From contig DANJ01000014.1 in the NCBI GenBank assembly GCA_002497285.1, positions 34,089 to 98,088 on the forward strand: a DNA stretch of 64,000 nucleotides. Direction: 5' to 3'. This stretch comes from Candidatus Pacearchaeota archaeon UBA92. Lineage in GTDB: Archaea > Nanobdellota > Nanobdellia > Pacearchaeales > GW2011-AR1. A model generated the notes under the pieces. It was not told where the DNA came from, did no database searches, and saw only the letters and a program-made list of their open reading frames with translations. Within the stretch, counting starts at the first letter, position 1. Each line of letters starts with the position of its first letter. Position numbers and translations under genes: made by a program. Of the stretch, positions 9,716 to 61,969 are shown piece by piece.

Positions 9716-11929
9716 CTATCTCTTTGCTCTCTTTGAACGAGATTTCAAAAGCCATAGGATGGCAAAGAAGATTATCACAAGAACTACCGCCAAAACGGAC
9801 AAGACAAATGAAGGCAGCTTTTCAGGTTCAACTGGAATGTCGAAAAATCCTTCAGAGGTTTTATCTGTCGGAATCTTTTCATTTATAGATTTTATAGTCA
9901 AAACCGCAGACAATTTAGAAGCAGCTATCTCATTCACTTCAACCTGCAAATCATAATAACCATCGACATCCATGTCAAATTTCCCAGTATTTCCAAGGAA
10001 AATTTCCTCTGTTATAGGCTCCGAAGAAACAGTCACAACCACAGAATTATTATTTATATCATCCAGCACCAATGAGTGCAGTTCATTGTTTAATAAAAAT
10101 TTCAAACTCCATTTCTTGAAGAAAGTTCTCTTGTATCCATCTTTCAAATTATCAGGAGTCAAAGAAATAATTGCAGCACTCCCTGAAGAGCCTGTAGATG
10201 CCGTAGCAGCAGAAGTCGTATAAGATATTGAAATTGTATTGCTACCTGAAGCCTGCTCCAAGCCAGTAACATTAAGATTAACAATTGAGTTTGAACACTC
10301 ATATTCTCCCGTTAAGTAGGTCTTTGAATAATTTCCACTGTGAGATGAATAAGATATTGACTGAATAGTCATGCATGAATCCGTATTGAATAAAACACTA
10401 ATATTAACTATACCTGTCAGGTTTGATGCAATATTCTTGCTCGTTGTTGAAACCGAAGAAAACCAGATAGGAGTATTATTTCTATTTGCTCCCTCAGTTA
10501 AATTGAACCAGTTTAAAACAAAAATACCTCTTCCAGGATTTAAAGTAAAATTGATATTAAGATCATTGCTAAAGAGATTACCACTCCCAATGACTGAATA
10601 ATTATCGAGGTAGAGCAAAGCATTGGTAAGATTATACACTTGGACATAGCTTTTTAATAATCCCGTGTTATTAAACAGCAATCCGGGATTATCCAAAGAA
10701 GTGTTACTCACTTTATAACTATCAGCAATCCAATCTATTCCATTTCGGCTGGAATTTTGGTTCGCTAGCCCTTTTACAATCTGGTTCCACATATAAGTCG
10801 CAAACTCCAATGCTCCCGCTTTGCTTGGATGTATTCCATCAATAGTATAAGTATTGTTCCAAGAGGTATAAGTTCCATTTGTATCATTGACAATACTTCT
10901 TAACTTAATCATTCCAATTTCAACATTGGCTATTGAAGTATTAACAGTAAGATTAACTAAGTCTGCTTCCAATGCAATTTTCTTATCTTCAGAATTGCTG
11001 GTATCATATTGAGAAACTAAAATAAAGTATAGTCTATCTGAAGAGTATCCAGCAGTATTATAGGCATCCCTATATCTTGTTATAATATTATAAATATTTC
11101 GAGAATAATTTTGTTTGCACCATTCTACATCATCTCCTCGTTCACACATAGTCCATGCATCAAAGAAGGTCAATGCAATTTTATCTTTTTTTATTAAACC
11201 TTCTTTTCCTGACCAAGGAACTAACACTCTACAAGTAGAATTATAACCCTCCGCCCAGTTTATAGTGAGATTTGTTCTTGTTAGAACATTTGTGATATAT
11301 GCCGTTGTATCAAACGAATCTCCCAAATAAGGATACCATAATTCTTTATGAATTTCTTTTCCATTAGCATATATATCAAATTGAACCTTACAAAATTCGC
11401 AATAATTATTGGTTACACTCTGTGGGACATCCAAATAACAATTATTTTCCGAATCTAAATAAACATCAGACCAAACTTTATCTGTATAAATTTGACAGCT
11501 AGTGTTAAGAAGAATATCTGTTTCTAAATTAAATCCAGAAGGCTCGTTTTGATATAGTGTGTTTTTTTGAAGTGTTGCTTTTTTTGGAGGAAGACCACAA
11601 AAAGTATAGGTAACTGCTAGGTTGTTAATATCTTTATCACCTACATTTTTGATACTAAATGGGATAATTGTTGCATTGTCTTTTACAATTGGGCTAAAAG
11701 AGGGATCAACACTCACATCGATTGTTCCAAACCAAACTGGAAAAATATTAAATTTTTGTATAATCTTGCTTTCATGTAAGAAAGCCCCTCCAAAAAACGA
11801 GATATAAAATAATAAAATGACTAATAAAATATAAATTAATGGTCTCTTTTTCAACTTAGTTTTAGTGCTTTCAATTTTCCTCTCAATTGTTTCTATATCG
11901 GCAACCATCTTATAGCTTATTAACCGCAC
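9716..11929 (-). CDS. membrane-anchored surface protein with central SGNH/GDSL-hydrolase domain, Ser/Thr-rich linker, and N- and C-terminal TM segments
   Basis: SGNH block I YPYLGDSFD (GDS nucleophile, about aa 203), block III-like VNDT, block V DGIHPSKAG (DxxH, about aa 365), spaced about 160 aa apart. Many N-x-S/T sequons. The C-terminal TM SVLAVVLVIIFFAILWLL is followed by a KSRSKRAKR tail. Confidence 0.55.
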   Translation of the reverse strand: MRLISYKMVADIETIERKIESTKTKLKKRPLIYILLVILLFYISFFGGAFLHESKIIQKFNIFPVWFGTIDVSVDPSFSPIVKDNATIIPFSIKNVGDKDINNLAVTYTFCGLPPKKATLQKNTLYQNEPSGFNLETDILLNTSCQIYTDKVWSDVYLDSENNCYLDVPQSVTNNYCEFCKVQFDIYANGKEIHKELWYPYLGDSFDTTAYITNVLTRTNLTINWAEGYNSTCRVLVPWSGKEGLIKKDKIALTFFDAWTMCERGDDVEWCKQNYSRNIYNIITRYRDAYNTAGYSSDRLYFILVSQYDTSNSEDKKIALEADLVNLTVNTSIANVEIGMIKLRSIVNDTNGTYTSWNNTYTIDGIHPSKAGALEFATYMWNQIVKGLANQNSSRNGIDWIADSYKVSNTSLDNPGLLFNNTGLLKSYVQVYNLTNALLYLDNYSVIGSGNLFSNDLNINFTLNPGRGIFVLNWFNLTEGANRNNTPIWFSSVSTTSKNIASNLTGIVNISVLFNTDSCMTIQSISYSSHSGNYSKTYLTGEYECSNSIVNLNVTGLEQASGSNTISISYTTSAATASTGSSGSAAIISLTPDNLKDGYKRTFFKKWSLKFLLNNELHSLVLDDINNNSVVVTVSSEPITEEIFLGNTGKFDMDVDGYYDLQVEVNEIAASKLSAVLTIKSINEKIPTDKTSEGFFDIPVEPEKLPSFVLSVLAVVLVIIFFAILWLLKSRSKRAKR

Positions 11930-11967
11930 TTTTTAGAGTTATCTTTTAGGGAGGGGATACGGATTAG

Positions 11968-11990
11968 ATATCTTTTTAAAAAGCATATCT
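11968..11990 (+). promoter_or_regulatory. putative archaeal TATA/BRE-like element upstream of the defense operon
   Basis: ctttttaaaaagcat lies 20-30 nt upstream of the ATG at 12002 (leaderless-type spacing). No SD before 12002, whereas the internal genes carry GGAGG. Confidence 0.2.
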
Positions 11991-12001
11991 CTAGGATAAA
12001 T

Positions 12002-13519
12002 ATGGGAACTGGCAACTCAGGAGAACGTCAAAAAATTCTAACTAAATCGAAGTATCTCAATGGGTTGCAGTGTTTAAAGTATCTATGGATTGCAGTTAAT
12101 GATCCTAAAAGAATACCTGCACCAGATGAGCAAGACGAGTTTAGATTTGATGAGGGGCATATTGTTGGGGAATATTCAAAAAAGCTTTTTCCTGATGGCA
12201 TTGATTTGCCTAGCTCACCTGCTGATTTTAGTAAGAACTTAGAAGAAACCCAGAAGTCGCTGGCTATTAGAAAGCCATTATTTGAAGCAGGATTCTTAAA
12301 AGAAAGAGTTTATTCTAGGGCAGATATTCTTGACCCAGTTAAAGGCTCTAAAGACATGTGGGATATTATAGAAGTTAAGAGTTCAACAGAAGTCAAAGAT
12401 GTTCATATTCAAGATGTAGCCTTTCAAAAGTTTTGTTACGAAAAAGCAGGATTAAAAATAAATAAATGTTTTCTTATGCATATTAATAAAGAATATGCTA
12501 AGAAGGGAAATATTAAGGTAGACCAGTTATTTGTTAAAGAAGATATAAGCGAGAAAATTGAAGAAGAGATATCTAACATTCCTGATCGATTAGGTCAAAT
12601 GTTTAAAGTAATGGATTGTAGTGAAGAACCTAAAAGTAAGATAGGGGAGTTTTGTAAAGACCCTTATGACTGTCCAATAAAAAGTGAATGTTGGGGTTTT
12701 CTTCCAGAGAATAGCGTGTTTAATCTTTATAGGGGTGGAAAGAGATCACTTGATTTATTTGAAAAAGGGATTTTGGCAATAAGAGACATTCCAGAAGATT
12801 ACGAGTTGGGAGATAAACAAAAAATCCAGCATTTTTGTGCTAAAACCGATAAACCTCATATAAACAAGGAAGCAATAAAATCTTTCATAAAGAGATTAAA
12901 ATATCCCTTATATTTCCTAGATTTTGAAACCTATCAAACGGTAATCCCCTTGTATGATGGATTGAAACCCTATCAGCAGATACCCTTTCAGTTTTCTTTA
13001 CATATAGTTGATAAAAAAGGAAATAAAAAGCATTACTCATTTGTTGCTGAAGGAAATACAGATCCACGACCTGAGTTTTTTAAACAACTAAAAAAGAAGT
13101 TAGCAAAAAAAGGGAGTATAATTGTTTACAACCAGAGTTTTGAGCAAGGAAGACTAAAAGAATTAGCAGAGCTATTCCCAAAAGAAAAGAAAACTGTAGA
13201 AGAATACATAAAAAGAATGGCTGACTTGTTAGTTCCATTTAGAAATTTCGATTATTATGATTGTAAACAACAAGGGAGTGCAAGTATAAAACATGTTCTT
13301 CCAGCATTAACAAAAGTTACATATAACGGAATGGATATCGCAAACGGCGGTCAAGCATCATTAAGGTATTTGTTTATTACTCACGGATCCAATGATGGAA
13401 AGAAAGCAACAAAAGAAGAGATAAAAAAAGTAAGAGAAGATTTAGAAAAATATTGTTGTCTTGATACTGAAGCTATGATAATGGTTATGAATAAATTAAA
13501 AGAAGTTACAAAAAAATGA
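12002..13519 (+). CDS. DUF2779-type protein: N-terminal PD-(D/E)xK (Cas4/RecB-like) nuclease fused to a DEDD/DnaQ-like 3'-5' exonuclease domain
   Basis: DILD...DIIEVKSS (D..ExK nuclease core). Cys cluster CSEE..C..PYDCPIKSEC. Then YFLDFET (Exo I), IIVYNQSFEQ (Exo II), CCLDTEAM (Exo III). Stop overlaps the start of the next gene (ATGA at 13516). Confidence 0.65.
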   Translation: MGTGNSGERQKILTKSKYLNGLQCLKYLWIAVNDPKRIPAPDEQDEFRFDEGHIVGEYSKKLFPDGIDLPSSPADFSKNLEETQKSLAIRKPLFEAGFLKERVYSRADILDPVKGSKDMWDIIEVKSSTEVKDVHIQDVAFQKFCYEKAGLKINKCFLMHINKEYAKKGNIKVDQLFVKEDISEKIEEEISNIPDRLGQMFKVMDCSEEPKSKIGEFCKDPYDCPIKSECWGFLPENSVFNLYRGGKRSLDLFEKGILAIRDIPEDYELGDKQKIQHFCAKTDKPHINKEAIKSFIKRLKYPLYFLDFETYQTVIPLYDGLKPYQQIPFQFSLHIVDKKGNKKHYSFVAEGNTDPRPEFFKQLKKKLAKKGSIIVYNQSFEQGRLKELAELFPKEKKTVEEYIKRMADLLVPFRNFDYYDCKQQGSASIKHVLPALTKVTYNGMDIANGGQASLRYLFITHGSNDGKKATKEEIKKVREDLEKYCCLDTEAMIMVMNKLKEVTKK

Positions 13520-16431
13520 AATCTCAAAAGCATTCAAAACTAATTCTGAAAGAAAAAAATACCCATTCAAATCTAACGGATTACCATGCAAAATATTATG
13601 CAAATGAATTAACAAAAAGAAATCCTTCAGATAGTATAGAAAAATTAACTACTTCGCTTGCTGATGCCCAAGTTGATTTAAATCCTCATCAAATTGATGC
13701 TGCACTTTTTGCATTCAAATCGCCTCTTTCTAAAGGAGTTATATTAGCGGATGAGGTTGGTTTAGGAAAAACAATCGAAGCAGGAATAGTATTATCTCAA
13801 AAATGGGCAGAGAGCAAAAGAAAAATATTAATTATAGTCCCTTCAAATTTAAGAAAGCAATGGAATCAAGAATTATTAGAGAAGTTTTTCTTAGAATCTC
13901 TAATTTTAGAAACAAAATCTTTTAATGAGATAAATGAGAAAATTAAAATCGGAAATCCATTTGAGCAGAACAAGATAGTTATTTGCTCTTATCATTTTGC
14001 AAGAATTAAAGAGGAATTTATCAAATCGATTAATTGGGATTTGATTATTATTGATGAAGCCCATAGATTAAGGAATGTTTATAAAAAAGGAAATAAGATT
14101 GCCAAGTCAATCAAAGAGTCAACAAAACATGCTCCAAAAATCCTACTTACTGCCACACCTTTACAAAATTCTTTATTAGAACTATATGGATTAGTGGGAT
14201 TTATTGATGATCATATCTTTGGAGATTTAGAAAGTTTTAAAGAACAATTTGTATGGGGGACTGAAGGGAATGGAGTTAATTTTGATGATTTGAAAAAAAG
14301 ATTGAGCCCAATCTGTCAGAGGACATTGAGAAAACAAGTTTTAGAATACATAAAATATACCAATAGACTCGCACTTACTCAAGATTTTATTCCAAATAAA
14401 GAGGAGCAAGAACTTTATAAAAAAGTATCAGATTACTTACAAAAAGAAGACCTTTTTGCATTACCTTCTGGTCAAAGACATTTAATGACTCTGATAATGA
14501 GAAAATTACTGGCATCTTCGACCTTTGCAATTGCGGGAACATTAAGATCTCTTACAAAAAGATTAAAAAAAGTTGTTGAAGCTGGTTCCTTTGAAGAAGT
14601 GGGTAGTTTGTTTAGGGGAGAATATGAGGGGCTAGACGAATTAAGTGAAGAATGGAATGATGAGGACGAACCAGAGAAAAAACAATTAACTCTTTCTGAA
14701 AAAGAACAACTTAAAAGAGAAATAAAAGAGCTGGAAGATTTTAGTAATCTTGCTGAATCCATAAAATCAAATGCAAAAGGAGAAGTTATGCAGACGGCAC
14801 TTGCAGAAGGTTTTTCAAAATTAAAAGAACTTAAAGCTCCAGAAAAAGCATTGATATTTACTGAATTTAGAAGAACCCAAGAATATCTTTATGAAATACT
14901 TTCAAAAACGGAGTATAAAGATAAAATAGTTCTATTTAATGGAACAAACAATGATGAGCTCTCGCAAAGGATATATCGAGAATGGTTAGATAAAAACCGA
15001 GGCACAGATAAATTTACAGGCTCTAAATCTGCTGATCTAAGATCTGCACTAGTTGAATATTTTAGAGATGAAGCTAAAATAATGATCGCTACCGAAGCTG
15101 CAGCAGAAGGCATCAATCTACAGTTCTGTTCATTAGTTGTTAATTACGATCTGCCTTGGAATCCTCAAAGAATAGAACAAAGAATAGGAAGATGTCATAG
15201 ATATGGGCAGAATCATGATGTCGTCGTTATCAACTTTTTGAATAAAAAAAATGAAGCAGACCAGAGAATTTTCCAATTACTTTCTGAGAAGTTTAAATTA
15301 TTTGATGGAGTTTTTGGTGCAAGCGATGAAGTTTTAGGAGCAATTGAATCGGGAGTAGATTTTGAAAAAAGAATAAGTCAGATTTATCAAGAATGTAGAG
15401 GTGCAGAAGAAATAAATAAATCATTTGATAATTTGCAGAAAGAATTAGAGTCACAGATTGAGGAAGGAATGAAAGTTACTCGTAAAAAGCTTTTAGAAAA
15501 TTTTGATGAGGCTGTTCACGAAAGGTTAAAAATAAGTTTAGACCAAAGCAAACAATATCTCAATAGATTTGAACAGTGGTTATGGAGTCTTACTAAATAT
15601 GGTCTTAATGACTCTGCAACATTCAATGACTCTGATTTTTCATTTGATTTGAAAAAATCTCCCTTTAGTGAAATAAACATTTCAACTGGGAGATATAAGC
15701 TAGGTAGAAAAGTTGAAGATGCCCACATTTATCGTATAGGACATCCGATCGCCCAGAGATTATTAGAGAGATTTAAATCTAAAAATCTTCAAGATAGGGA
15801 ATTAGTTTTTGACTTTTCAAACTATGGAAAGAAGATTAGTGTTTTGAATAACCTGCAGAAGAAGAAAGGAGAATTAATATTATGGAAATTAATTGTAGAC
15901 TCATTTGAAAGCGAAGACTATCTTATATTTACCGCTTTAACAGATAAAAAGGAAATTTTGGAAGAAGAGCAATGTAAGAGATTATTTAGTTTGCCTGCAA
16001 ATATGGGTGATGTTTCCAAGAGCTTAGAAATGGAATCAAATTTAAGATCTGAATTTGAAAAGAAAAAGGTTAAGCTCATATCTGAAATTGCAGGAAAAAA
16101 CAGTGTCTTCTTCGATGAGGAAATGGAGAAGTTAGATAAATGGGCGGAGGACAGGAAAAGAACATTAAAAAATAGCTTAAAAGAGCTTGATGAAAAGATA
16201 CAAATCCTAAAAAAAGATATTAGAGTAACCACTAATCTTCAAGATAAACTTAAAAAGCAGAAAGAAATTAGGAGTTTAGATAAAAAGAGGGATGAATCTT
16301 GGAAAGAATATGACCAAGAAGCCCAAAGGATAAACGTTAAAAAGGACGGATTGATTGATAATATTGAAGCGAGAATGGAGCAAAAGATAAAGGTCGAAAA
16401 GCTCTTCTCGATCAAATGGAGTGTTAAATAA
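13516..16431 (+). CDS. SNF2-family (SF2) helicase/translocase with a long C-terminal coiled-coil extension
   Basis: Motif I LADEVGLGKTIEAG, motif II IIIDEAHRLRN, motif III LLTATPLQNSLLELY, motif VI QRIGRCHRYGQ. About 350 aa Lys/Glu-rich coiled coil after the helicase core. Confidence 0.85.
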   Translation: MKSQKHSKLILKEKNTHSNLTDYHAKYYANELTKRNPSDSIEKLTTSLADAQVDLNPHQIDAALFAFKSPLSKGVILADEVGLGKTIEAGIVLSQKWAESKRKILIIVPSNLRKQWNQELLEKFFLESLILETKSFNEINEKIKIGNPFEQNKIVICSYHFARIKEEFIKSINWDLIIIDEAHRLRNVYKKGNKIAKSIKESTKHAPKILLTATPLQNSLLELYGLVGFIDDHIFGDLESFKEQFVWGTEGNGVNFDDLKKRLSPICQRTLRKQVLEYIKYTNRLALTQDFIPNKEEQELYKKVSDYLQKEDLFALPSGQRHLMTLIMRKLLASSTFAIAGTLRSLTKRLKKVVEAGSFEEVGSLFRGEYEGLDELSEEWNDEDEPEKKQLTLSEKEQLKREIKELEDFSNLAESIKSNAKGEVMQTALAEGFSKLKELKAPEKALIFTEFRRTQEYLYEILSKTEYKDKIVLFNGTNNDELSQRIYREWLDKNRGTDKFTGSKSADLRSALVEYFRDEAKIMIATEAAAEGINLQFCSLVVNYDLPWNPQRIEQRIGRCHRYGQNHDVVVINFLNKKNEADQRIFQLLSEKFKLFDGVFGASDEVLGAIESGVDFEKRISQIYQECRGAEEINKSFDNLQKELESQIEEGMKVTRKKLLENFDEAVHERLKISLDQSKQYLNRFEQWLWSLTKYGLNDSATFNDSDFSFDLKKSPFSEINISTGRYKLGRKVEDAHIYRIGHPIAQRLLERFKSKNLQDRELVFDFSNYGKKISVLNNLQKKKGELILWKLIVDSFESEDYLIFTALTDKKEILEEEQCKRLFSLPANMGDVSKSLEMESNLRSEFEKKKVKLISEIAGKNSVFFDEEMEKLDKWAEDRKRTLKNSLKELDEKIQILKKDIRVTTNLQDKLKKQKEIRSLDKKRDESWKEYDQEAQRINVKKDGLIDNIEARMEQKIKVEKLFSIKWSVK

Positions 16432-16433
16432 AA

Positions 16434-18377
16434 ATGGCAAAGAAGGAAACTAAAATTGAAAGAGTTGATTTGAAATCTAGGGATATTGTTGCTAATCAGA
16501 AAGAAAAGCTTAGACAATTGTTCCCAGAAATATTCTCTGAAGATAAAGTTAATTTTGAAAAACTAAAAAAGACATTAGGTGAAAATGTTGATGAATCTCA
16601 GGAAAGATATGAAATGACTTGGGCAGGAAAGACTAACTGTTTTAAAATTATACAAGAATCTTCATTAGGAACATTAAAACCTATTGAAAAGGAGTCGATT
16701 AATTGGGGCGAAACACAGAATTTGTTTATTGAAGGAGATAATTTAGAAGTTCTTAAACTTCTTCAAAAATCCTATAATGAAAAGATAAAAATGATTTACA
16801 TTGATCCTCCTTATAATACGGGTCATGATTTTGTGTATAAAGATAAATTCGGACAACAATTAGATGATTATCTAAAACTAACTGGACAAGTAGATGAAGA
16901 GGGTAAAGCCTTATCTACAAATACTGATGCAGATGGAAGGTATCATAGTAATTGGATGAATATGATGTATCCGAGATTATTTCTTGCAAGAAATCTTTTA
17001 AAAGAAGAAGGCGTGATTTTCATTTCTATTGATGATAATGAGGTAGATAATTTAAAGAAGGTTTGTAACGAAATATTTGGAGAGGAAAATCTTGTTGCTC
17101 AATTAGTTTGGAAGAAGAAAGCGGGAGGAGGAAACGATACTAAATATTTTGCTATTGATCATGAGTATATTTTATGTTATGCAAAGAATATAATCTCTAT
17201 GGGAAGATTATGGATAGGATTAACTGAAGAACAAAGAAGTAAATATGTTCTAAAAGATGAATTTTTTGATGAAAGAGGACCATACCAATTAAAAAATCTT
17301 TATCAAGGATCTATTGCAGAAGATCGTCCCAACTTAAAGTATCCAATAACTTGCCCTGATGGTTCTAAACTGCATAAGAAAAAGGATGGGGGACTTTATA
17401 GATGGAGATGGGAAGAGTCTCGGTTTTTGGAAGGTGTAAAAGATAGTAAAATAGAATTTAAAAAAATAAATGGAGAATGGCAGGTTTTTACTAAGCAATA
17501 TCTTTATGATGGAGAAGATGGAGATGAAAGAATGACTAAACCTAGATCAATTTTATTGAAGGAAGGAATGACTCGAGATGGTAAAGAAGAATTAAAATCT
17601 TTGTTTGATAAACCTCCTTTTGATTTTCCAAAACCTACAAAATTGATAAAGCATCTCATGAGTATAATGACTAATTCAGATTCAGATGAAATAATCTTAG
17701 ACTTTTTTGCTGGTTCTGGAACAACTGCTCATGCAGTTTTAGAGTTAAATAAGGAGGAGAACGGGAGGAGAAAGTTTATTCTTGTTCAATTACCCGAGCC
17801 AACCAACGAGGACTCAGAAGCCTTCAAGACAGGATATAAACATATAGCCCATATCTCTCAAGAAAGAATAAAGAGAGTAATTAAGAGAATTAAAGAAGAA
17901 CAAAAAGAAGCTGGAAAGCAAAAGAAAATTGGAGAAGAAAATAAAACAAATAACCTCGATTTAGGATTTAAGGTATTCCAATTAGATAAATCCAACTTTA
18001 AGATTTGGGATGCACAAACAAGAGATATTCAGACTGCCTTGAATGAACATATAAATCCGATAAGAAAAGAAAGTTCGCAAGAAGATGTCCTTTATGAACT
18101 GATACTAAAATCAGGATTATCTTTAACAACAGATATTAAAGAGATAAAAGTTGGCAATAAAAAATTGTTTTCTATTGAGGATGGAATGCTCCTAATTTGT
18201 TTAGAGAAAGAGCTAACTTCTGAATTAATAAAGAAAATTGCAGAAATGAAACCTGCGAGATTTTACTGTTTAGATGATGGATTTAAAGGAAATGATCAAC
18301 TAAAAGCCAACGCTGTTGAAATCTTTAAGAATGTTGAAACTGTTGATGGAGAAAAAATTGTCTTCAGAACAGTTTAA
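16434..18377 (+). CDS. mod: type III restriction-modification Mod subunit (N6-adenine DNA methyltransferase, beta class)
   Basis: IYIDPPYNTGHDF (motif IV DPPY) precedes FFAGSGTTAHAV (motif I, AdoMet binding). Size 647 aa. Immediately followed by Res. Confidence 0.85.
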   Translation: MAKKETKIERVDLKSRDIVANQKEKLRQLFPEIFSEDKVNFEKLKKTLGENVDESQERYEMTWAGKTNCFKIIQESSLGTLKPIEKESINWGETQNLFIEGDNLEVLKLLQKSYNEKIKMIYIDPPYNTGHDFVYKDKFGQQLDDYLKLTGQVDEEGKALSTNTDADGRYHSNWMNMMYPRLFLARNLLKEEGVIFISIDDNEVDNLKKVCNEIFGEENLVAQLVWKKKAGGGNDTKYFAIDHEYILCYAKNIISMGRLWIGLTEEQRSKYVLKDEFFDERGPYQLKNLYQGSIAEDRPNLKYPITCPDGSKLHKKKDGGLYRWRWEESRFLEGVKDSKIEFKKINGEWQVFTKQYLYDGEDGDERMTKPRSILLKEGMTRDGKEELKSLFDKPPFDFPKPTKLIKHLMSIMTNSDSDEIILDFFAGSGTTAHAVLELNKEENGRRKFILVQLPEPTNEDSEAFKTGYKHIAHISQERIKRVIKRIKEEQKEAGKQKKIGEENKTNNLDLGFKVFQLDKSNFKIWDAQTRDIQTALNEHINPIRKESSQEDVLYELILKSGLSLTTDIKEIKVGNKKLFSIEDGMLLICLEKELTSELIKKIAEMKPARFYCLDDGFKGNDQLKANAVEIFKNVETVDGEKIVFRTV

Positions 18378-18388
18378 GGAGAAAAAAT

Positions 18389-21313
18389 ATGGCTCTTAAA
18401 CTAAAATTCGACAGCGATTTACGACACCAAAATGATGCAATTAGTTCTATAGTTGATTTATTTGATGGTCAGCCATTAAATCAAGGAGATTTTGAAGTCT
18501 ATATGGCAAAGAAGAAGGGTGAGCTCCATAGTCATTTGGGATTGGGAAATAAAATTCTATTAGATGAAAAAGATATTTTAGAAAATTTGAAAAAGATACA
18601 AGAAAAAAATGAACTTCCACTTTCGGATAATTTAGATGGGCTTAATTTTTCTATTGAAATGGAAACAGGAACTGGAAAAACTTATGTTTATTTAAGAACG
18701 ATATTTGAATTAAACAAAAAATATGGTTTCAAGAAGTTTATTGTTGTAGTTCCAAGTGTTGCGATTAGGGAGGGAGTTAAGAAAAATATTGAAATTACAG
18801 AAGAACACTTCAAAAAGTTATATAATAATGTTCCATTCAAATGTCAGGTCTATGATTCTAAAAAAATAAATCAAGTTGGGGAGTTTGCAAGAAGTAATAA
18901 CATTCAGGTTCTAATTATCAATATTGATGCATTTAGGAAGACATTAGAAGATAAAGATGAACTCTCAAAGGCAAATGTTATTCATAGAGAACAAGATAAA
19001 CTCGGTGGTAGAAAACCAATTGAGTTCATTCAAGCAACAAAACCGATCGTAATTATAGATGAACCTCAAAGCGTAGACAATACAGATCTAGCTAAAAAAG
19101 CAATTTCTTTATTAAACCCTTCCTGCATATTAAGGTATTCTGCTACGCATAGAGAACAATATAATTTAGTTTACAAATTAGATCCTATAAAAGCGTATGA
19201 TTTGAAATTAGTTAAAAAAATAGAGGTGGCTTCTTTAACCGAAGACTTATCTGCAAATGAACCATACATCAAGTTAGAAAAAATGGATAATTCAAAGGGT
19301 CTCAGAACAAAAATATCTATTCTACAAAAAGGCTCTTCGGGAACAAATAAGAAAAGCTTGTTTGCAAAACAAGGCGAAGATTTGTATGATCTCTCTGGTG
19401 AGTTGGAAATTTACAGAGGATATATTATATCTGACATAGATGCTACCCCTAAAAATGAATTATTGACTTTCAGCAATGGCAAGTTTTTAACATTGGGTCA
19501 AGAAATGGGTGGAATAAAAGAAGAATTGATAAAACAACAAATTAAAGAGACTATTAAAGAACATCTTAAAAAAGAAGCTAAATTTAAGAAACTCGGTATA
19601 AAGGTTCTTTCTCTATTCTTTATTGATAGAGTTAATAATTATAGATATTATGATGAAAAGAATAAGGCACAAAAAGGAAAATATGCTCAATGGTTTGAAG
19701 AGTCATTTAAAGAGTTATTAAAAGAATCTTACTTTAAGTTTATTATAGATCAAGTTTATCCAGGATTTTCAGAAGAGTCCATTGAAAGGCTACATAACGG
19801 ATATTTTGCACAAGATAAAAGTGGAAATTGGAAAGATACAAATGGACAAACTCAAGCTGATGACGATATCTATGGGCTTATTATGAGAAACAAAGAGCAA
19901 TTATTGTCTATGGACGAACCATTGAGATTTATATTTAGCCACTCTGCTTTAAGAGAGGGTTGGGATAATCCTAATGTTTTTCAAATATGCACATTAAATG
20001 AGACTAAATCTACTATGAAAAAAAGACAAGAAATTGGACGAGGGTTAAGACTCCCCGTAAATCAAAAAGGAGAAAGAATTTATGATGATGAAATCAACAG
20101 ATTAACTGTCTTTGCTAATGAAAGCTATGAAGATTTTGTTAAGAAGTTACAAGAAGATTTTGAAGAAGACGGTATGAAATTTGGTATTGTTGACGAGATT
20201 ATATTTAGAAAAGTAAGGGAACTTATTGCTGGAGAGAAATTTATTCCTTCGGAAAAAGCCAAAGAGATTTTTATCGAATTAAAAGATAAAGGATACATAA
20301 ACAAAGATGGAAAGATTGAAGAGAAATTTGCCCCTGAAAAAGAAGGATTCAAATTGGAGCTTAAAGAGTCATTAGTCAAATATTCTCCGCAGATAACTGA
20401 TTTATTGAAGAAACAATTATTAACTAGTAGAGTTAAGAGAAAAAGAGATAGACAACCTGTAAAACTAAAGAAAGAAGTTATAGCTAGTCCAGAATTTAAA
20501 GCTCTTTGGCAAAAAATAAATAAGAAAACATTCTATTCAGTAGAATTTTCTACTAAAAAGCTTATAGACAATTGTTCAATCCTAATAAGACAAATTGATA
20601 AAATAAGACCATTGAAAATTGATTTTAAGAAAGCTGAAGTTGAATTAGAAAAGGAAGGACTAGACACAACCCTTTTAAGAACTCAAGAAATTGAAGTTAT
20701 GAAAGAGAACTCTCTTCCAGATATCTTATCTTATCTACAGAGAGAAACACATTTAACTAGAGACACGATAGCAGAAATTCTAATAAAATCAAATAGGATT
20801 GAAGAGTTTAAAATAAATCCTCAAAGATTCATGGATGCTATAATTGAAGTTGTCAAAAAAGAATTATTGAGCTTATTGCTATCGGGAATAAAATATGAAA
20901 GAATAGGCAATGAAGTTTATGAGATTCAAATATTTCAAGAAAAAGAAATTGAAGAATATTTAGATAAAATGATAGAAGTCAATAATAGCGTTTATGATTA
21001 TGTTGTTTATGATTCCGAAGTAGAGAAGAAGTTTGCTAAAGAACTTGACAAAAGAGAAGATGTAGAATTATTCATGAAACTTCCTCCAAAGTTCATTGTA
21101 AATACACCATTAGGATCTTATAATCCAGATTGGGCTGTTGTAAAAAAGGATGAAAAGGGAGCTAAAAAATTATATCTTGTAAGAGAAACAAAAGGTTCGC
21201 TTTCTGAAGAAGACCTTAGAGGTAGAGAAGCATATAAGATAGAATGTGGAAGAAGACATTTTAAGGCAATTGACGTTGACTTTGATGTTGTGACTAGTGC
21301 CAGCGAGGTTTAA
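18389..21313 (+). CDS. res: type III restriction enzyme Res subunit (SF2 helicase plus C-terminal PD-(D/E)xK endonuclease)
   Basis: Walker A EMETGTGKTYVY, DEAD-like IIDEPQ, helicase motif VI region QEIGRGLRL, C-terminal nuclease motif YNPDWAVV...LYLVRETKG. GGAG SD-like sequence 8 nt upstream. Confidence 0.85.
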   Translation: MALKLKFDSDLRHQNDAISSIVDLFDGQPLNQGDFEVYMAKKKGELHSHLGLGNKILLDEKDILENLKKIQEKNELPLSDNLDGLNFSIEMETGTGKTYVYLRTIFELNKKYGFKKFIVVVPSVAIREGVKKNIEITEEHFKKLYNNVPFKCQVYDSKKINQVGEFARSNNIQVLIINIDAFRKTLEDKDELSKANVIHREQDKLGGRKPIEFIQATKPIVIIDEPQSVDNTDLAKKAISLLNPSCILRYSATHREQYNLVYKLDPIKAYDLKLVKKIEVASLTEDLSANEPYIKLEKMDNSKGLRTKISILQKGSSGTNKKSLFAKQGEDLYDLSGELEIYRGYIISDIDATPKNELLTFSNGKFLTLGQEMGGIKEELIKQQIKETIKEHLKKEAKFKKLGIKVLSLFFIDRVNNYRYYDEKNKAQKGKYAQWFEESFKELLKESYFKFIIDQVYPGFSEESIERLHNGYFAQDKSGNWKDTNGQTQADDDIYGLIMRNKEQLLSMDEPLRFIFSHSALREGWDNPNVFQICTLNETKSTMKKRQEIGRGLRLPVNQKGERIYDDEINRLTVFANESYEDFVKKLQEDFEEDGMKFGIVDEIIFRKVRELIAGEKFIPSEKAKEIFIELKDKGYINKDGKIEEKFAPEKEGFKLELKESLVKYSPQITDLLKKQLLTSRVKRKRDRQPVKLKKEVIASPEFKALWQKINKKTFYSVEFSTKKLIDNCSILIRQIDKIRPLKIDFKKAEVELEKEGLDTTLLRTQEIEVMKENSLPDILSYLQRETHLTRDTIAEILIKSNRIEEFKINPQRFMDAIIEVVKKELLSLLLSGIKYERIGNEVYEIQIFQEKEIEEYLDKMIEVNNSVYDYVVYDSEVEKKFAKELDKREDVELFMKLPPKFIVNTPLGSYNPDWAVVKKDEKGAKKLYLVRETKGSLSEEDLRGREAYKIECGRRHFKAIDVDFDVVTSASEV

Positions 21314-22009
21314 ATGACACTAGCCCTAACTTTTCCAATAAGGGATGCATGGGTAGTTATTGCAGATAAAAAGATGATTAGTAAGGAGGATAATATTAAA
21401 GATAGCGATCTAATGTGCATAAAGTTTTTTACAGATAATAGACAAAAAATAGAAAAGATAGCTCATGGATTAATCTTTGTTGGTGCTGGAAATAAGGACA
21501 TATTAGATAAGACTATTGAGAGAATAAATCTTTCAAAAGACTTTGACGAGTTTTTGAAGTATTTAAAAGAAAAAATAGGTGAAGTATACTCTCATTTTGG
21601 TGATACTATAAATGAAGAGGAATTTTTGATTATTGAACAGAACAAACAAAGAGCTTTTAAGTTCAAGATTAAAGAAATAAAAAGAAGCGAGGGTAAAAAA
21701 GGCTGTTATCCTTTGATAGCCCAGAATCTTGAGAATAATTTCATTGGTTGTTATGAAAATTGCATAAATCTCGGGAATGTTAAATTAGAGATAAACCAAT
21801 TAAGAACTAATATTTCTACAAGTGCGGGCAAGAAATTTTATCAAGAGTGTAATAGAATTCTTTCGCTTCTCGCAATAGATAATCTATATTCAGTGGGACA
21901 TCCAGCAATACATGGATCAGACATCTGGTTAGTTTCAAATAATAAGATTAAAAAAGTTTACTCTTCGCCAGCAAATACATATCTATGGGAGGTTAAAGAA
22001 GATGATTAA
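21314..22009 (+). CDS. hypothetical protein of the defense operon; N-terminus resembles an Ntn-hydrolase (HslV/proteasome beta-like) fold
   Basis: MTLALTFPIRDAWVVIADKKMISKEDNIKDSD..IKFF..IAHGLIFVGAGNKDILD. Thr directly after Met1, Asp about 17 residues after it, Lys about 33-36, G-x-G-D further on. This copies the T1/D17/K33 spacing of HslV ([20 protein letters not shown]...KVRRL...IAGFAGGTAD). GAGG SD upstream. Start abuts the res stop. Confidence 0.3.
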   Translation: MTLALTFPIRDAWVVIADKKMISKEDNIKDSDLMCIKFFTDNRQKIEKIAHGLIFVGAGNKDILDKTIERINLSKDFDEFLKYLKEKIGEVYSHFGDTINEEEFLIIEQNKQRAFKFKIKEIKRSEGKKGCYPLIAQNLENNFIGCYENCINLGNVKLEINQLRTNISTSAGKKFYQECNRILSLLAIDNLYSVGHPAIHGSDIWLVSNNKIKKVYSSPANTYLWEVKEDD

Positions 22010-24185
22010 GGAATTTGAGGATATTCGATATAAATTTGAAGAACAAAAAGTAAGGTATACTTCTATTTCCAATAAATTTTCATTTGAAGATAAGAAAAAA
22101 ATAATAGAAACTATCTTGGAAGAGGATATCTGGGCATATTTTCAATTAGCAGTTGAAATATTATTTGAGTTTTGTTCTGATACTAAGGAATACATTAATC
22201 TGTTAGAAAGAACCTATAATAAAATAAAAAATGATATGGCATCTGCACCTTTCTTTGAGATGTTGATTAGAATCGGTAAGGAGAAGCCATCTATAGGTCT
22301 TGCAATTTATAAAGAAATAAATCAAAATAGCAATAGCGATGAGCTCAAAACAATAAGCGGTTTAATACTTGGGGGATATTCAATAAAAGAGAATAATCTT
22401 TTAAACAAGTTAATAGGAGAAAGAAAAATAGAATACCCTCTTACAAATCTGACTCTTAAGGCAATTCTGGTAAAATATGAAAATGAAAACGCTATTCCTG
22501 AAGAGGTAAAATCATTTATTGAATATGTCTCTAACTCTGAAGAGGAAAAACATTTGAGAGAACTTATGAATCTTTGTATTTTTTTATACAAATTAGATAA
22601 TAACTATTTTTATGATATAATTAAAAAGATAATGGAAAAGAAAAATAGTAGAGTAAATGAGATGATTTTTATTAGATGCAAAAGGCTAAACTTCTCAAGT
22701 AAACAGTTTATAGAATTAGCTGAGCTTACAAAAGATTGTGATGAACACGCTTTAAATGAACTGATGCATTCTTTTATTGATTATCCAGAGGAAGTTGAGA
22801 ATATATCAGAATTATTTATTTATTGGGTAAACAAGAACTTGGAGTTTAAAATTATAAATTTTGATTGGACATTAAAAGAATTGGCTAAAAAGAATAAGAA
22901 ATTCATAGAATACTTCATAGATAATTATAGCAAAATCCAGACTGAAAAGTTATCTTATTTTCATTTATTCCCAAGAATGTTTGAGAGATTAGCTTCTGAG
23001 GATATCTCTTTCGCCATAAAAATATTAATTATCAAGAAAGTATGGGAAAAGGACTTAAGACTATTCTTTGAATTGGTATCTAAAATTATAGGCGATATTT
23101 ATAAGTTGAGTGATAAAAACAAGGCATTTGATTTGTTCTTACCTCTTGCCAATGTAATTGAAAGCATCTCGGAGGGTTCAGATTTTGTAAATTATGACAA
23201 GGATAATTTTAATAAGATTATTCAAACAAAAAACTTTGATGAGTTAATCAATTATGTCAACTATTTGTTGGATGCTTTAAGGTTTCGTAAGAATAAATAT
23301 AACTTTGAAGAAATAGATAAGTCATTAGAAGAATTTAAAGAACTAAACTATGTTGTAAAAACTACTCTGGATAAAATAAAAAAAGAAAAGAGATACTCTC
23401 CATTATTCTGGCTAGGCGAACAAGAAAGAGATAAGGAGTTAAAGAAAGCATACCTAGAAGAATTAAACCAATATTTGAATTTAACCTCGGATATAGTGAA
23501 TGAAGAATGTTCTGAGAACAATAGGTCTTTGATTAATAATCTAAGTGATGAAAGTGGCTTTTTTGATGTCTTTAGTGAGGTGCTATTCATAAATAAATTT
23601 GTTGTTTTAAAGAGCAAGTATAGTTTAGTTATTGAACCAAAAATACCTAATAAGAGAGGTTATTCAGATTTATTAGTTCAGAATAAGCAAAGAAAGTTTT
23701 TCTTTGAGGTTAAAAATTCAAAAACAGATCGAAATTTAAGTTTAGATAACGGGGCAGTCTTAATAAAAAATAGGGTGGACAAGATAATTAAAGAAAAATC
23801 CAAGCAGTTCTTTGATGAAAAAACATTTAAGGAGATGGAAGATGGAAAAAGGACAGATCTCTACTTTATAGTAATTGATGCAGATAATTCAACTATCGAT
23901 GAATACATGATTGCCAATAGCTTTTTTGGAAGTTTAGCTTATCAGTTTTATAGAAATAATAAAACTGGGGAGACTACAGAACCCCAGTTAGTAAGGAATG
24001 ATGATGCAATAGCTAAGGATAAGAAAATTGTTAGCGGATTAATATATTTCAAAAAACAGTTAATCAATAAAGATGGAAAAATAAAATTTATTTTGGTAGG
24101 GGATATTATTGTAAATCCTTATGCAGTTAATCAACCAACAAAAGAAGAGGTTGAAGAGTTAAAGAAAATATTATTTAGTGCGTAA
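22002..24185 (+). CDS. large hypothetical protein (727 aa): N-terminal all-alpha repeat region plus C-terminal restriction-endonuclease-like (PD-(D/E)xK) motif
   Basis: C-terminal segment LVIEPKIPNKRGYSDLLVQNKQRKFFFEVKNSK (D-x11-E-x-K) then DLYFIVIDAD. GGAGG SD upstream. Start overlaps the previous stop (22002 vs 22009). Confidence 0.45.
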   Translation: MIKEFEDIRYKFEEQKVRYTSISNKFSFEDKKKIIETILEEDIWAYFQLAVEILFEFCSDTKEYINLLERTYNKIKNDMASAPFFEMLIRIGKEKPSIGLAIYKEINQNSNSDELKTISGLILGGYSIKENNLLNKLIGERKIEYPLTNLTLKAILVKYENENAIPEEVKSFIEYVSNSEEEKHLRELMNLCIFLYKLDNNYFYDIIKKIMEKKNSRVNEMIFIRCKRLNFSSKQFIELAELTKDCDEHALNELMHSFIDYPEEVENISELFIYWVNKNLEFKIINFDWTLKELAKKNKKFIEYFIDNYSKIQTEKLSYFHLFPRMFERLASEDISFAIKILIIKKVWEKDLRLFFELVSKIIGDIYKLSDKNKAFDLFLPLANVIESISEGSDFVNYDKDNFNKIIQTKNFDELINYVNYLLDALRFRKNKYNFEEIDKSLEEFKELNYVVKTTLDKIKKEKRYSPLFWLGEQERDKELKKAYLEELNQYLNLTSDIVNEECSENNRSLINNLSDESGFFDVFSEVLFINKFVVLKSKYSLVIEPKIPNKRGYSDLLVQNKQRKFFFEVKNSKTDRNLSLDNGAVLIKNRVDKIIKEKSKQFFDEKTFKEMEDGKRTDLYFIVIDADNSTIDEYMIANSFFGSLAYQFYRNNKTGETTEPQLVRNDDAIAKDKKIVSGLIYFKKQLINKDGKIKFILVGDIIVNPYAVNQPTKEEVEELKKILFSA

Positions 24186-24240
24186 AACGTCCGTTTTCTC
24201 CAGCCCCAGTTTTAACATCCTATCACGACGATTAGAATTC

Positions 24241-24705
24241 TTATTTTACATGGGGGGATTTTGGTCTGCCGAGCTTTTTGCCTTCCTGCCTTGCCCTTTC
24301 TAAGCCAGCCATAGTCCTTTCCCTGATAATATCCCTCTCAAATTGGGCAAATGACGAGAGAATGTTTATCATTAGCTTATTTGTTGGGTTATCATCTAAG
24401 ACTATATTCTCCTTTAGAGTTTTGAATTGAACATTATTTTGTTTAAGAAGTTCTAAGTCATTAATGAGTTCCTGCATGCTCCTTGCCCATCTGTCAAGTT
24501 TCCAAACTAAAATTAAATCCCATTTCTTTCTTAATGCATCTTGAAAAATATCGTTTTTTACAGGGCGAGTCTTTCTTGTTGACTCCTGTTCTTCAAATAT
24601 TTTATAATCATAGCCCATAGCTTTTGCATACTTTTCCAACTCTATCTTTTGATTCTCAGGATTCTGATCTATCTTTGAAGTTCTACAATATATCGCTACT
24701 TTCAT
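24241..24705 (-). mobile_element. serine recombinase (resolvase/invertase catalytic domain), C-terminal HTH missing and probably truncated
   Basis: MKVAIYCRTSKIDQNPENQ carries the catalytic Ser in the YxRxS context. Also ...DRWARS, LGRPK. 154 aa ending right after the GRPK linker, where the HTH would normally follow. Confidence 0.7.
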
Positions 24706-25164
24706 GTTTTCTTACCTTAGTTGGCTCTCTATGAATTTCACAAGGGCATTCAAAAGGATCAATCTTATATTTTTGTTTTAATTCTGTAACATACAACACT
24801 TCTCTTTCCCCTGCTCCGCCATTAACATGTCTATTCCAATAAAGATTGTTTACTAAAGAAATAATTGAGTTCTCTTGGGTTATCGATGCTATTTCATTTA
24901 ATTCTGTGCCCGCAAACCTGCCAAAAATATATTCATGGAAACCTTGTGCGACTTTTTTATTTAAACTTGTTAAAGATGAACATGCTCCTCCATCACCTTG
25001 ATAATTTCTATTCTTATCCCATGTTTTTTGCAGGCTTCTTCTATTGCAACTCTGCAAAAAACTTTCAGTTTTTCGCTTCTCATCATGCGATATCTGTACT
25101 TTGGTGTTATCTGAACATACTTCCTGTTTGCTCCGACAGAGCTCCCGCTATGTTTGTATTCCAT
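24683..25164 (-). pseudogene. tnpA: IS200/IS605-family Y1 transposase (tnpA) remnant split by a frameshift
   Basis: N-part ORF 24970..25164: KYVQITPKYRYRMMRSEKL...KVMEEHVHL (HuH motif). C-part in another frame, 24683..25057: ...EYIFGRFAGTELNE...LYWNRHVNGGAGEREVLYVTELKQ matches the tnpA C-terminus (Y-containing helix, GG...Y.E). The two frames overlap around 24970-25057. Confidence 0.6.
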
Positions 25165-61968: not shown

Positions 61969-61969
61969 T

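What the first reader, a model, noticed from the sequence alone, without database searches (positions are those of the whole stretch)
12002..24185. Six-gene translationally coupled defense operon: DUF2779 dual nuclease, SNF2 helicase, type III Mod, type III Res, Ntn-like protein and a large alpha-helical nuclease-like protein
All six ORFs are co-directional with overlapping or abutting stops and starts: ATGA at 13516, TAA-aa-ATG at 16434, 11-nt gaps with GGAG/GAGG/GGAGG SD-like boxes before 18389, 21314 and 22002, and a 22002/22009 overlap. The core is an ordinary type III R-M pair (Mod with DPPY, Res with helicase plus PD-ExK). It is sandwiched between four extra genes that do not belong to canonical type III systems. 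Upstream is a PD-(D/E)xK plus DEDD-exonuclease fusion (DUF2779 architecture) and a SNF2 translocase with a 350-aa coiled-coil tail. Downstream is a 231-aa protein with an HslV-like N-terminal Thr and a 727-aa HEAT-like protein ending in a D..ExK motif. SNF2 next to an N6-adenine MTase recalls DISARM class 1 (DrmD-DrmMI). The remaining DISARM genes (DrmA/DUF1998, DrmB, PLD DrmC) are absent and a bona fide Res is present instead. That suggests an undescribed hybrid or expanded R-M-like system. The operon sits in the most AT-rich stretch of the window and is bounded 3' by transposon debris, consistent with a mobile defense island.
Basis: partly seen in the sequence, partly recalled or inferred. 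Interest (0 to 1): 0.85.

Follow-up and report, generated by a model that had tools for sequence, protein, structure and literature searches.

The report
Composite restriction locus with protease cassette
The six genes exist as described, but they are two independently conserved modules joined end to end in a DPANN archaeon: a type III restriction-modification system with a helicase and a nuclease added, and an uncharacterised two-gene cassette (a proteasome-like protease plus a large HEAT-repeat protein) that in related archaea sits inside other kinds of restriction operons.

Summary
The window comes from a Candidatus Pacearchaeota (DPANN) archaeon. The six genes are not one conserved system.

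Module 1 is SNF2 helicase, type III Mod and type III Res. This trio recurs in all 8 independent contexts examined, in bacteria, conjugative plasmids and DPANN-like contigs. Variable cargo genes are often inserted into it. The DUF2779 nuclease (Cas4-like plus 3'-5' exonuclease) accompanies it only in the nearest relative.

DNA comparison shows G5-G6 is a discrete 2.9 kb cassette. The closest relative of module 1 lacks it, and the homology break falls at the Res stop codon. No Pfam, PADLOC, NCBIfam or PHROGs family matches G5 or G6.

Best reading: a helicase-augmented type III system with a novel restriction-operon-embedded accessory cassette, probably a defence module. Its mechanism is unproven.

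The parts
12002..13519 (+). G1: DUF2779 protein (505 aa). The N-terminal half is a Cas4-like PD-(D/E)xK nuclease with 4 Cys. The C-terminal half is an RNase H-like 3'-5' exonuclease.
   Evidence: Pfam PF11074 154.8 bits and RNase_H_2; weak PADLOC Cas4 hit. This architecture is described in PMC13621843 and PMC3985635. Also found upstream of the SNF2 gene in L026 and next to HsdM-G5-G6 in L005.
13516..16431 (+). G2: SNF2-family helicase (971 aa), DrmD/RapA-like.
   Evidence: SNF2-rel_dom 131 bits and Helicase_C 78 bits. DrmD_b 743 bits, below the 950 cut-off. Thousands of full-length homologues at about 60% identity in bacteria. Always followed by type III Mod and Res.
16434..18377 (+). G3: type III Mod, an N6-adenine methyltransferase (647 aa). 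DPPY comes before FxGxG. The central target-recognition region is variable.
   Evidence: PADLOC MTase_III 700.6 bits; Pfam N6_N4_Mtase. The region 17095-17687 shows no DNA match to L026 although the flanks are 79-86% identical.
18389..21313 (+). G4: type III Res (974 aa). SF2 helicase motifs plus a C-terminal PD...ExK endonuclease.
   Evidence: PADLOC REase_III 1022 bits; Pfam ResIII plus RE_endonuc 135.5 bits; NCBIfam PRK15483 413.8 bits, below the 564 cut-off.
21314..22009 (+). G5: proteasome beta/HslV-fold protein (231 aa) with Thr directly after the initiator Met.
22002..24185 (+). G6: 727-aa protein. Residues 1 to about 500 form a HEAT/ARM-like alpha-solenoid. Residues about 515-727 form an alpha/beta domain with restriction-endonuclease-like topology and conserved E526, D556, E569, N590, R/K591 and D626.
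21314..24185 (+). The G5-G6 cassette as a unit (2.87 kb), swapped in between the Res stop codon and the recombinase region.
   Evidence: blastn against L026 matches 11955-21313 and 24183-24988 only. blastn against L010 matches 21314-24176 only, at 84.5%.
24241..24705 (-). Small serine recombinase (154 aa) that travels with the SNF2-Mod-Res module.
   Evidence: Pfam Resolvase 124.7 bits. Found at the same position and 92% DNA identity in L026. Recombinase genes also flank the module on the Rhizobium and Salmonella plasmids.
24683..25057 (-). Remnant (124-aa ORF) of a gene that is 427 aa in L026.
   Evidence: DNA homology to L026 ends at window position 24988. No Pfam family.

Best explanation
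The locus is a composite of two independently conserved, mobile modules that are co-transcribed here.

Module 1 (12002-21313) is a helicase-augmented type III restriction-modification system.
- Mod methylates one strand of an asymmetric site. Res uses ATP to leave its site and cuts unmodified DNA. This is established type III biology, inferred here from family membership.
- The SNF2 helicase is a constant third partner. Its role is unknown. I infer an auxiliary DNA translocase, as in the SNF2 plus methylase pairs of DISARM and ARMADA.
- The DUF2779 protein (Cas4-like 5' nuclease plus 3'-5' exonuclease) is a lineage-specific add-on. I infer that it degrades the ends of restricted DNA, a RecBCD-like job.

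Module 2 (21314-24185) is a self-contained two-gene cassette found mainly in DPANN archaea. It has landed precisely behind the Res stop codon.
- G5 is a proteasome-family N-terminal-threonine hydrolase.
- G6 is a HEAT-repeat scaffold fused to a metal-dependent nuclease-like domain.
- The cassette habitually sits inside restriction operons of three different types and depends on them for expression.
- I infer that it is an accessory defence module. G6 would bind a trigger or a partner through its solenoid and act as the nuclease effector, and G5 would control it or its target by proteolysis. It would act as a second layer alongside whichever restriction system hosts it.

Shown: the fold of G5, the conserved residues, the gene linkages and the cassette boundaries. 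Inferred: every activity and the defence role of G5-G6.
For: Module 1:
- SNF2-Mod-Res is present in 8 of 8 contexts. These are L025 Geoanaerobacter, L026, L027-29, L030, L031 and L032 and plasmids L033 Rhizobium and L034 Salmonella IncFIB.
- Cargo is inserted at different points: SMC-like ATPases, DUF262, Abi plus IS256, and a DSPc phosphatase. Hachiman lies downstream in L027.
- DUF2779 occurs only in L026.
- The Mod target-recognition region has diverged between the window and L026, as expected for an active system.

Module 2:
- A G5-like gene lies directly upstream of G6, usually overlapping it, in 17 of 18 distinct loci.
- 13 of those 17 loci are embedded among HsdR/HsdS/HsdM, Mod plus ResIII, or PLD-SNF2 plus Eco57I-type methylase genes.
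- The cassette boundaries are sharp.
- The G5 fold and catalytic residues are supported.
- The G6 model and its invariant acidic triad are supported.
- G5 and G6 pairwise identities are correlated (Mantel test, 1 of 2000 permutations reached the observed value).
- No relative was found in viral contigs.
Against: - No experiment exists on any member of the G5 or G6 families.
- The nuclease identity of the G6 C-terminal domain rests on predicted topology and an E/D/E triad only. Fold searches returned only solenoid hits. The canonical Lys is not conserved. A profile comparison with Cas4-like proteins gave nothing.
- Four pairs (L003, L013, L017, L036) have no restriction genes nearby. Distant G6-like proteins occur alone. 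The link to restriction may therefore be island co-location rather than function.
- G5 can be replaced by a barely alignable version next to a 74%-identical G6. This argues against a tight, specific G5-G6 interface.
- The tight packing of all six genes is compatible with functional integration in this particular host.
Confidence: 0.6

Rival explanations
1. One reading: all six proteins form one obligate, expanded restriction-like machine in which the nuclease, helicase, protease and HEAT protein all work with Mod and Res.
For: All six genes are co-directional with overlapping or abutting stops and starts. There is no room for an internal promoter before G5. G5-G6 is habitually found in restriction operons.
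Against: None of 23 other G6 loci carries this SNF2, Mod or Res, and none of 8 SNF2-Mod-Res loci carries G5-G6. The nearest relative of genes 1-4 lacks the cassette, with breakpoints exactly at gene ends. The cassette works with unrelated partners (type I, BREX-related) and also occurs with no restriction genes at all.
Confidence: 0.12
2. G5-G6 is a regulator of its host restriction enzyme. It would be a dedicated protease-adaptor pair that degrades the restriction subunit (HsdR or Res) when the chromosome is unprotected, analogous to ClpXP-dependent restriction alleviation in E. coli. This reading assumes DPANN archaea lack ClpXP, which was not checked here.
For: The cassette most often sits directly after the restriction subunit gene: HsdR in L001, L002, L009/10, L018 and L019, and Res in the window and L006. 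G5 has a protease fold with an intact catalytic Thr. A HEAT solenoid is a typical adaptor. One such function could serve type I, type III and other systems alike.
Against: It does not explain the strictly conserved acidic triad in the G6 C-terminal domain. It does not explain pairs with no restriction genes (L003, L013, L017, L036). In L005 the pair follows HsdM rather than HsdR. Type III enzymes are not known to need proteolytic alleviation (my own knowledge).
Confidence: 0.18
3. G5-G6 is not a defence function at all. It would be a selfish or housekeeping proteolysis module, or an addiction-type pair, that merely accumulates in the same variable genomic islands as restriction systems in small DPANN genomes.
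For: Four pairs lack restriction neighbours, and L036 lies among integrases. Distant G6-like genes sit next to metal-transport genes. Fuchs et al. 2021 found no informative context for 22 families of proteasome homologues.
Against: 13 of 17 pairs lie inside restriction operons, on the same strand and often overlapping the flanking restriction genes. My rough estimate is that restriction loci occupy about 1% of a 1 Mb genome, so this is far more than expected by chance. Other neighbours are defence-type genes: Cas4-like, Shedu SduA_C, AlbA_2-HATPase, DUF3800, HEPN-like and AbiEii.
Confidence: 0.1

Closest known systems
Type III restriction-modification systems (EcoP15I / EcoP1I type, Mod2Res1)
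   Same: G3 and G4 have the defining Mod (DPPY before FxGxG, variable target-recognition region) and Res (SF2 helicase plus C-terminal PD...ExK endonuclease) in mod-res order. PADLOC type III models score 700 and 1022 bits.
   Different: An SNF2 helicase gene is a constant upstream partner (8 of 8 contexts), which canonical type III systems lack. Res scores below the NCBIfam cut-off for the EcoP15I-like equivalog (413.8 against 564). I found no paper describing the SNF2-Mod-Res trio in the searchable library.
DISARM class 1 and ARMADA (SNF2 helicase plus adenine methylase plus YprA-family helicase)
   Same: An SNF2 helicase (best hit DrmD_b) sits directly upstream of an N6-adenine methyltransferase, as with DrmD-DrmMI and ArmA-ArmB.
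   Different: There is no YprA/DUF1998 helicase (DrmA/DrmB, ArmC) and no PLD DrmC. The effector is a genuine type III Res. G2 is below the DrmD_b cut-off and its C-terminal third does not match the model. The methylase matches type III Mod models.
Accessory genes embedded in restriction operons (for example the PrrC anticodon nuclease inside EcoprrI, or DUF262/Abi genes inside restriction operons)
   Same: A cassette is inserted between restriction genes, co-transcribed with them and exchangeable between systems. The same behaviour is seen for DUF262 and Abi genes inside SNF2-Mod-Res on plasmids. PrrC is cited from my own knowledge.
   Different: The components (a proteasome-fold hydrolase plus a HEAT-nuclease-like protein) match no family in PADLOC, Pfam, NCBIfam or PHROGs. 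The same cassette serves type I, type III-like and BREX-related hosts.
Proteasome-like prokaryotic homologues (HslV, Anbu, BPH and the 22 families of Fuchs, Alva and Lupas 2021)
   Different: There is no sequence-level hit to Pfam Proteasome or to any PDB chain. There is no AAA+ partner. Instead G5 has a conserved HEAT-repeat neighbour and a restriction-operon context, whereas Fuchs et al. reported no informative genomic context for their families. Membership in one of their families could not be checked.
BREX-related 'BR type 2' systems (HKD/PLD-SNF2 helicase plus N6-methyltransferase; PMC12839542)
   Same: This is the host context of the cassette in L007 and L020: a PLDc_2 plus SNF2 helicase followed by an Eco57I/MmeI-type methylase.
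   Different: It is not present in this window. It is relevant only as a third type of host operon for G5-G6.

Membership tests
Type III restriction-modification | Mod: beta-class N6-adenine methyltransferase with motif IV (DPPY) before motif I (FxGxG) | tested here: met
   IDPPYNTG at about residue 123 and DFFAGSGTT at about residue 425 in the G3 translation. PADLOC MTase_III 700.6 bits; Pfam N6_N4_Mtase 122.8 bits.
Type III restriction-modification | Res: SF2 helicase motifs plus a C-terminal PD-(D/E)xK endonuclease, encoded directly after mod | tested here: met
   ResIII 59 bits plus RE_endonuc 135.5 bits; PADLOC REase_III 1022 bits; TGTGKT, DEPQ and PD...ETK visible in the sequence. The NCBIfam EcoP15I-type equivalog scores 413.8, below its 564 cut-off.
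Type III restriction-modification | ATP-dependent cleavage requiring two inversely oriented unmodified sites, with hemimethylation by Mod | not testable with these tools
   Requires biochemistry and methylome data.
DISARM class 1 | DrmD SNF2 helicase at the family threshold | tested here: not met
   NF038318 DrmD_b 743.4 bits against a 950 cut-off; only model positions 22-698 of 868 are matched.
DISARM class 1 | DrmA (YprA-like helicase), DrmB (DUF1998) and DrmC (PLD) present | tested here: not met
   None of the other five proteins hits these models. The only DrmA hit is the generic helicase core of G2.
ARMADA | ArmC YprA-family helicase-nuclease and ArmD UvrD-like helicase in the operon | tested here: not met
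   Absent from the six genes. Definition taken.
DUF2779 (PF11074) | Pfam model above the gathering score, with a Cas4-like N-terminal nuclease plus an RNase H-like exonuclease | tested here: met
   154.8 bits against a 23.3 cut-off; RNase_H_2 23.5 bits; PADLOC Cas4 E=1.8e-4 over residues 109-231. Architecture as described.
Proteasome-like Ntn hydrolases (peptidase family T1) | Proteasome beta-subunit fold | tested here: met
Proteasome-like Ntn hydrolases (peptidase family T1) | N-terminal Thr nucleophile with conserved Asp17 and Lys33 equivalents | tested here: met
   T2 and D18 are invariant in both G5 subfamilies and in L036. K45 is invariant in the G5a subfamily, and a Lys at about position 33 is present in G5b. 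Equivalence to the proteasome residues is by position in the model and alignment, not by superposed coordinates.
Proteasome-like Ntn hydrolases (peptidase family T1) | Sequence-level membership (Pfam Proteasome PF00227 or a hit to a solved homologue) | tested here: not met
   No Pfam hit at E<=0.01. A profile search against PDB sequences found nothing relevant.
Proteasome-like Ntn hydrolases (peptidase family T1) | Ring or barrel oligomer and peptidase activity | not testable with these tools
   Structure-prediction jobs were exhausted. Requires biochemistry.
PD-(D/E)xK nucleases (G6 C-terminal domain) | alpha-beta-beta-beta-alpha-beta core with an acidic residue at the start of strand 2 and (D/E)xK in strand 3 | tested here: inconclusive
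HEAT/ARM alpha-solenoids (G6 N-terminal region) | Stacked helical-hairpin repeats | tested here: met

The most novel reading that the evidence does not exclude
G5-G6 is a previously unrecognised class of immune module. In it a proteasome-family threonine protease and a HEAT-repeat nuclease plug into restriction-modification operons of any type. They would either guard the restriction enzyme (firing when it is inhibited) or proteolytically control it. This would be the first defence system built on a proteasome homologue, and the first functional context for the many orphan proteasome-like families. Separately, SNF2-Mod-Res may be an undescribed, very widespread helicase-dependent variant of type III restriction, present on Salmonella and Klebsiella conjugative plasmids.
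Probability: 0.3. Interest if true: 0.8.

Novelty: new variant of a known kind. Interest (0 to 1): 0.6.

Why it matters
There are three reasons.

1. It gives a proteasome homologue its first conserved genomic partner and context: a HEAT-repeat, nuclease-like protein inside restriction operons. The survey by Fuchs et al. 2021 found no informative context for 22 such families. This makes the function of at least one orphan proteasome-like family directly testable.

2. It shows that restriction operons in DPANN archaea act as landing pads for exchangeable accessory cassettes. The same pattern is seen for SNF2-Mod-Res on bacterial plasmids. That is useful for finding new defence genes in organisms with tiny genomes and few known systems.

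3. The SNF2-Mod-Res trio has thousands of close homologues, including on clinically relevant plasmids. Current tools label it as plain type III plus an orphan helicase. If the helicase is required, textbook type III mechanisms would need a variant.

Tried and rejected
- Sequence searches of G5 and G6 profiles against all PDB chains found nothing.
- PHROGs gave nothing for G1, G5 or G6.
- hhalign of the G6 C-terminal domain against the Cas4-like/DUF2779 N-terminal alignment gave probability 0.3%, so no relationship.
- Pfam on 10 distant G6 relatives found nothing above threshold. Cluster look-up gave no names or taxonomy.
- A viral-contig scan for G6 relatives found none.
- tRNA, Rfam and repeat scans of 8-28 kb for attachment sites or terminal repeats around the island found nothing meaningful.
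- Literature searches for a described SNF2 plus type III system, or for a proteasome-like defence component, found none. This library is incomplete, so absence is weak evidence.
- DISARM and ARMADA membership was considered and rejected.
- I considered that G5 might be a diverged housekeeping proteasome subunit. I rejected this because of its strict pairing with G6 and its cassette behaviour.

Full report
**Observation**

ORF listing confirms six co-directional ORFs at exactly the reported coordinates. The junctions are as described, with one correction. There is an ATGA overlap at 13516, a TAA-aa-ATG junction at 16434, and an 11-nt gap with GGAG before 18389. TAA is followed immediately by ATG at 21314, so that gap is 0 nt rather than 11. 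There is an 8-nt overlap at 22002-22009 with GGGAGG upstream. GC content is 0.28-0.32 across the operon, against 0.29-0.40 across the rest of the window. The G6 bin is the lowest in the window at 0.279. G6 is 100% identical to a protein of Candidatus Pacearchaeota archaeon CG1_02_32_132, so the window is from a DPANN archaeon.

**Domain content**

- G1 is a DUF2779 protein (154.8 bits). Its RNase H-like exonuclease half is detected, and there is a weak Cas4 hit on the N-terminal half. The literature describes this family as a Cas4-like nuclease fused to a predicted 3'-5' exonuclease.
- G2 is an SNF2 helicase. Its best named relative is DISARM DrmD_b, but it scores 743 bits against a cut-off of 950, and the last third of the model is unmatched.
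- G3 and G4 are a clear type III Mod and Res pair. The PADLOC models score 700 and 1022 bits, Res carries RE_endonuc, and the DPPY, FxGxG, Walker A, DEPQ and PD...ExK motifs are visible.
- G5 and G6 hit nothing in Pfam, PADLOC, NCBIfam or PHROGs.

**Are the six genes one system?**

G6 has a small family: 37 proteins in the word-indexed search, mostly Pace-, Woese- and Nanoarchaeota. I fetched 24 loci encoding relatives and compared their ORFs with the six window proteins.

None of these loci carries the window's SNF2, Mod or Res. L005 has a DUF2779 gene. In contrast, nearly every locus has a 199-237-aa gene directly upstream of G6, usually overlapping it, that begins MTL... or MTS.... An HMM built from these proteins hits only that position. 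After collapsing duplicate contigs and adding L036, G5-like plus G6 are adjacent in 17 of the 18 distinct loci where the upstream DNA is visible. The exception is L008, which has a HEPN-like ORF there instead.

Pfam annotation of the neighbours gave the following host contexts:
- Type I operons in most loci: HsdR, then 0-2 small genes, then G5-G6, then HsdS and HsdM.
- A different type III-like pair (N6_N4_Mtase plus ResIII) in L006.
- A PLD-SNF2 helicase plus an Eco57I/MmeI-type methylase in L007 and L020. This arrangement matches the 'BR type 2' BREX-related systems of PMC12839542.
- No restriction genes near four pairs (L003, L013, L017, L036).

**The cassette is discrete**

blastn of the window against L026 was decisive. 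L026 is the closest relative of genes 1-4, with an SNF2 protein 95% identical. Homology runs over 11955-21313 and resumes at 24183-24988. It breaks exactly at the Res stop codon and just after the G6 stop codon. L026 has 0.7 kb of unrelated DNA in place of G5-G6, followed by the same 154-aa serine recombinase.

Conversely, the closest relative of G5-G6 is L010, whose G6 is 88% identical at the protein level. It matches the window only over 21314-24176, at 84.5% DNA identity, and it lies in a type I operon. G5-G6 is therefore a 2.9 kb cassette that moves between restriction operons.

**The SNF2-Mod-Res module**

G2 has thousands of full-length homologues at about 60% identity in bacteria. All eight independent contexts I looked at have the SNF2 gene followed by a type III Mod and Res. 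They are:
- Geoanaerobacter (L025)
- L026
- L027-29
- L030
- L031
- L032
- a Rhizobium conjugative plasmid
- a Salmonella IncFIB plasmid

Different cargo is inserted at different points: SMC-like ATPases, DUF262, Abi plus IS256, and a DSPc phosphatase. Hachiman lies downstream in L027. DUF2779 accompanies the trio only in L026. DISARM and ARMADA both require a YprA-family helicase, which is absent here. I found no publication describing this trio.

**What G5 is**

Thr2, Asp18, Lys45 and a GxG motif are invariant in the subfamily. Thr2 and Asp18 are also kept in the very divergent second subfamily (MTSI...GDTQHTY) and in L036, which additionally has an IGSGSEA motif. The protein starts Met-Thr, as HslV does, so removal of the initiator Met would expose the nucleophile without propeptide processing. 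That last step is an inference.

**What G6 is**

Residues about 515-727 form an alpha/beta domain whose secondary-structure order, alpha-beta-beta-beta-alpha-beta, matches the restriction-endonuclease fold. D556 sits at the start of strand 2 and E569 in strand 3. E526, D556 and E569 are conserved almost throughout the wider family, including in stand-alone copies of this domain. N590, R/K591 and D626 are also mostly conserved. The canonical Lys (K571) is not conserved. I could not confirm the fold by search, so the nuclease assignment is probable but not shown.

An exhaustive profile search found 245 representatives among 1.84 billion proteins. All are unnamed metagenomic proteins, and none of 10 tested has a Pfam family. 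Two distant relatives occur without G5. One of them lies next to a type I operon on the opposite strand.

**Coupling between G5 and G6**

Pairwise identities of the two proteins across 15 loci are correlated: Pearson r 0.43, and only 1 of 2000 Mantel permutations reached the observed value. The rank correlation is weak, with Spearman rho 0.18. Strikingly, L001 and L002 have G6 proteins that are 74% identical while their G5 proteins are barely alignable (29% identity over 56 residues). The protease partner has therefore been swapped, or it evolves much faster than G6. I cannot explain this. It is compatible with G5 being the diversifying component, or with a loose interface between the two proteins.

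**Interpretation**

The best-supported reading is a composite locus. It combines a helicase-augmented type III restriction system, with a lineage-specific dual exonuclease, and an inserted accessory cassette that uses the operon for expression.

For the cassette I favour an independent second-layer defence role: a HEAT sensor or scaffold, a nuclease effector and a proteolytic switch. A regulator-of-restriction role, analogous to proteolytic restriction alleviation, is a serious rival. A non-defence role is less likely given the neighbours. All activities are inferred.

The interpretation as one hybrid six-gene system is only partly supported.

Noticed in passing
L001:9340-12172 versus L002:9340-12178: The G6 proteins are 74% identical, but the adjacent G5 proteins are barely alignable (29% over 56 aa). 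Two deeply divergent G5 lineages (MTL...ADKK and MTSI...GDTQHTY) are interchangeable next to closely related G6 proteins.
   Followed up: partly
L006:12253-12930, L007:9725-10387, L020:6212-6883, L021:2064-2735; also L005:6409-7899 and window 12002-13519: A Cas4-like PD-(D/E)xK nuclease gene recurs next to G5-G6. It is either a 220-225-aa PDDEXK_1 gene directly after G6 or a DUF2779 gene upstream. This may be a third, optional component of the cassette. Hudaiberdiev et al. 2017 noted solo-Cas4 genes next to restriction systems in DPANN archaea.
   Followed up: partly
window 30082-32988 (+): A 968-aa UvrD helicase fused to a PDDEXK_1 (Cas4-like) nuclease. The Cas4 phylogenomics paper reports this fusion as typically neighbouring type III Mod/Res. 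Here it lies about 9 kb downstream, separated by housekeeping genes.
   Followed up: no
window 17095-17687 versus L026: The central part of Mod has no DNA match to the 95%-related locus, although the flanks are 79-86% identical. This is consistent with a swapped target-recognition domain and a different specificity.
   Followed up: no
L025, L030, L032, L033, L034, L027: The SNF2-Mod-Res trio carries different inserted cargo in each locus: 740-1035-aa SMC/AAA ATPases between SNF2 and Mod, DUF262 or a DSPc phosphatase between Mod and Res, Abi plus IS256, and Hachiman HamA/HamB directly downstream. It behaves as a hotspot for accessory defence genes.
   Followed up: partly
L008:16-456: In this short contig, G6 is preceded by a 146-aa ORF with an RNNIVH (HEPN-like Rx4-6H) motif rather than by a G5-like gene. 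The contig is binned as Pseudomonadota, which is probably a mis-binning.
   Followed up: no
L026:5431-8408 (-): Directly upstream of the DUF2779 gene in the closest relative lies a three-gene cluster with CTD12, MC6/MC8 and DUF2326 domains, which look like conflict-system components. The window has an unannotated 737-aa ORF (9716-11929, -) at that position.
   Followed up: no
L006:12932-13960: A Shedu SduA_C-domain gene follows the Cas4-like gene after G5-G6.
   Followed up: no
window 50083-58803 (-): A 2906-aa ORF with Laminin_G_3 domains, presumably a giant surface protein.
   Followed up: no
window 5298-8550, 42705-44752, 58924-63838: Several ORFs of 337-640 aa have no Pfam family at E<=1e-4. 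The 42-44 kb stretch is nearly as AT-rich (GC 0.290) as the cassette.
   Followed up: no
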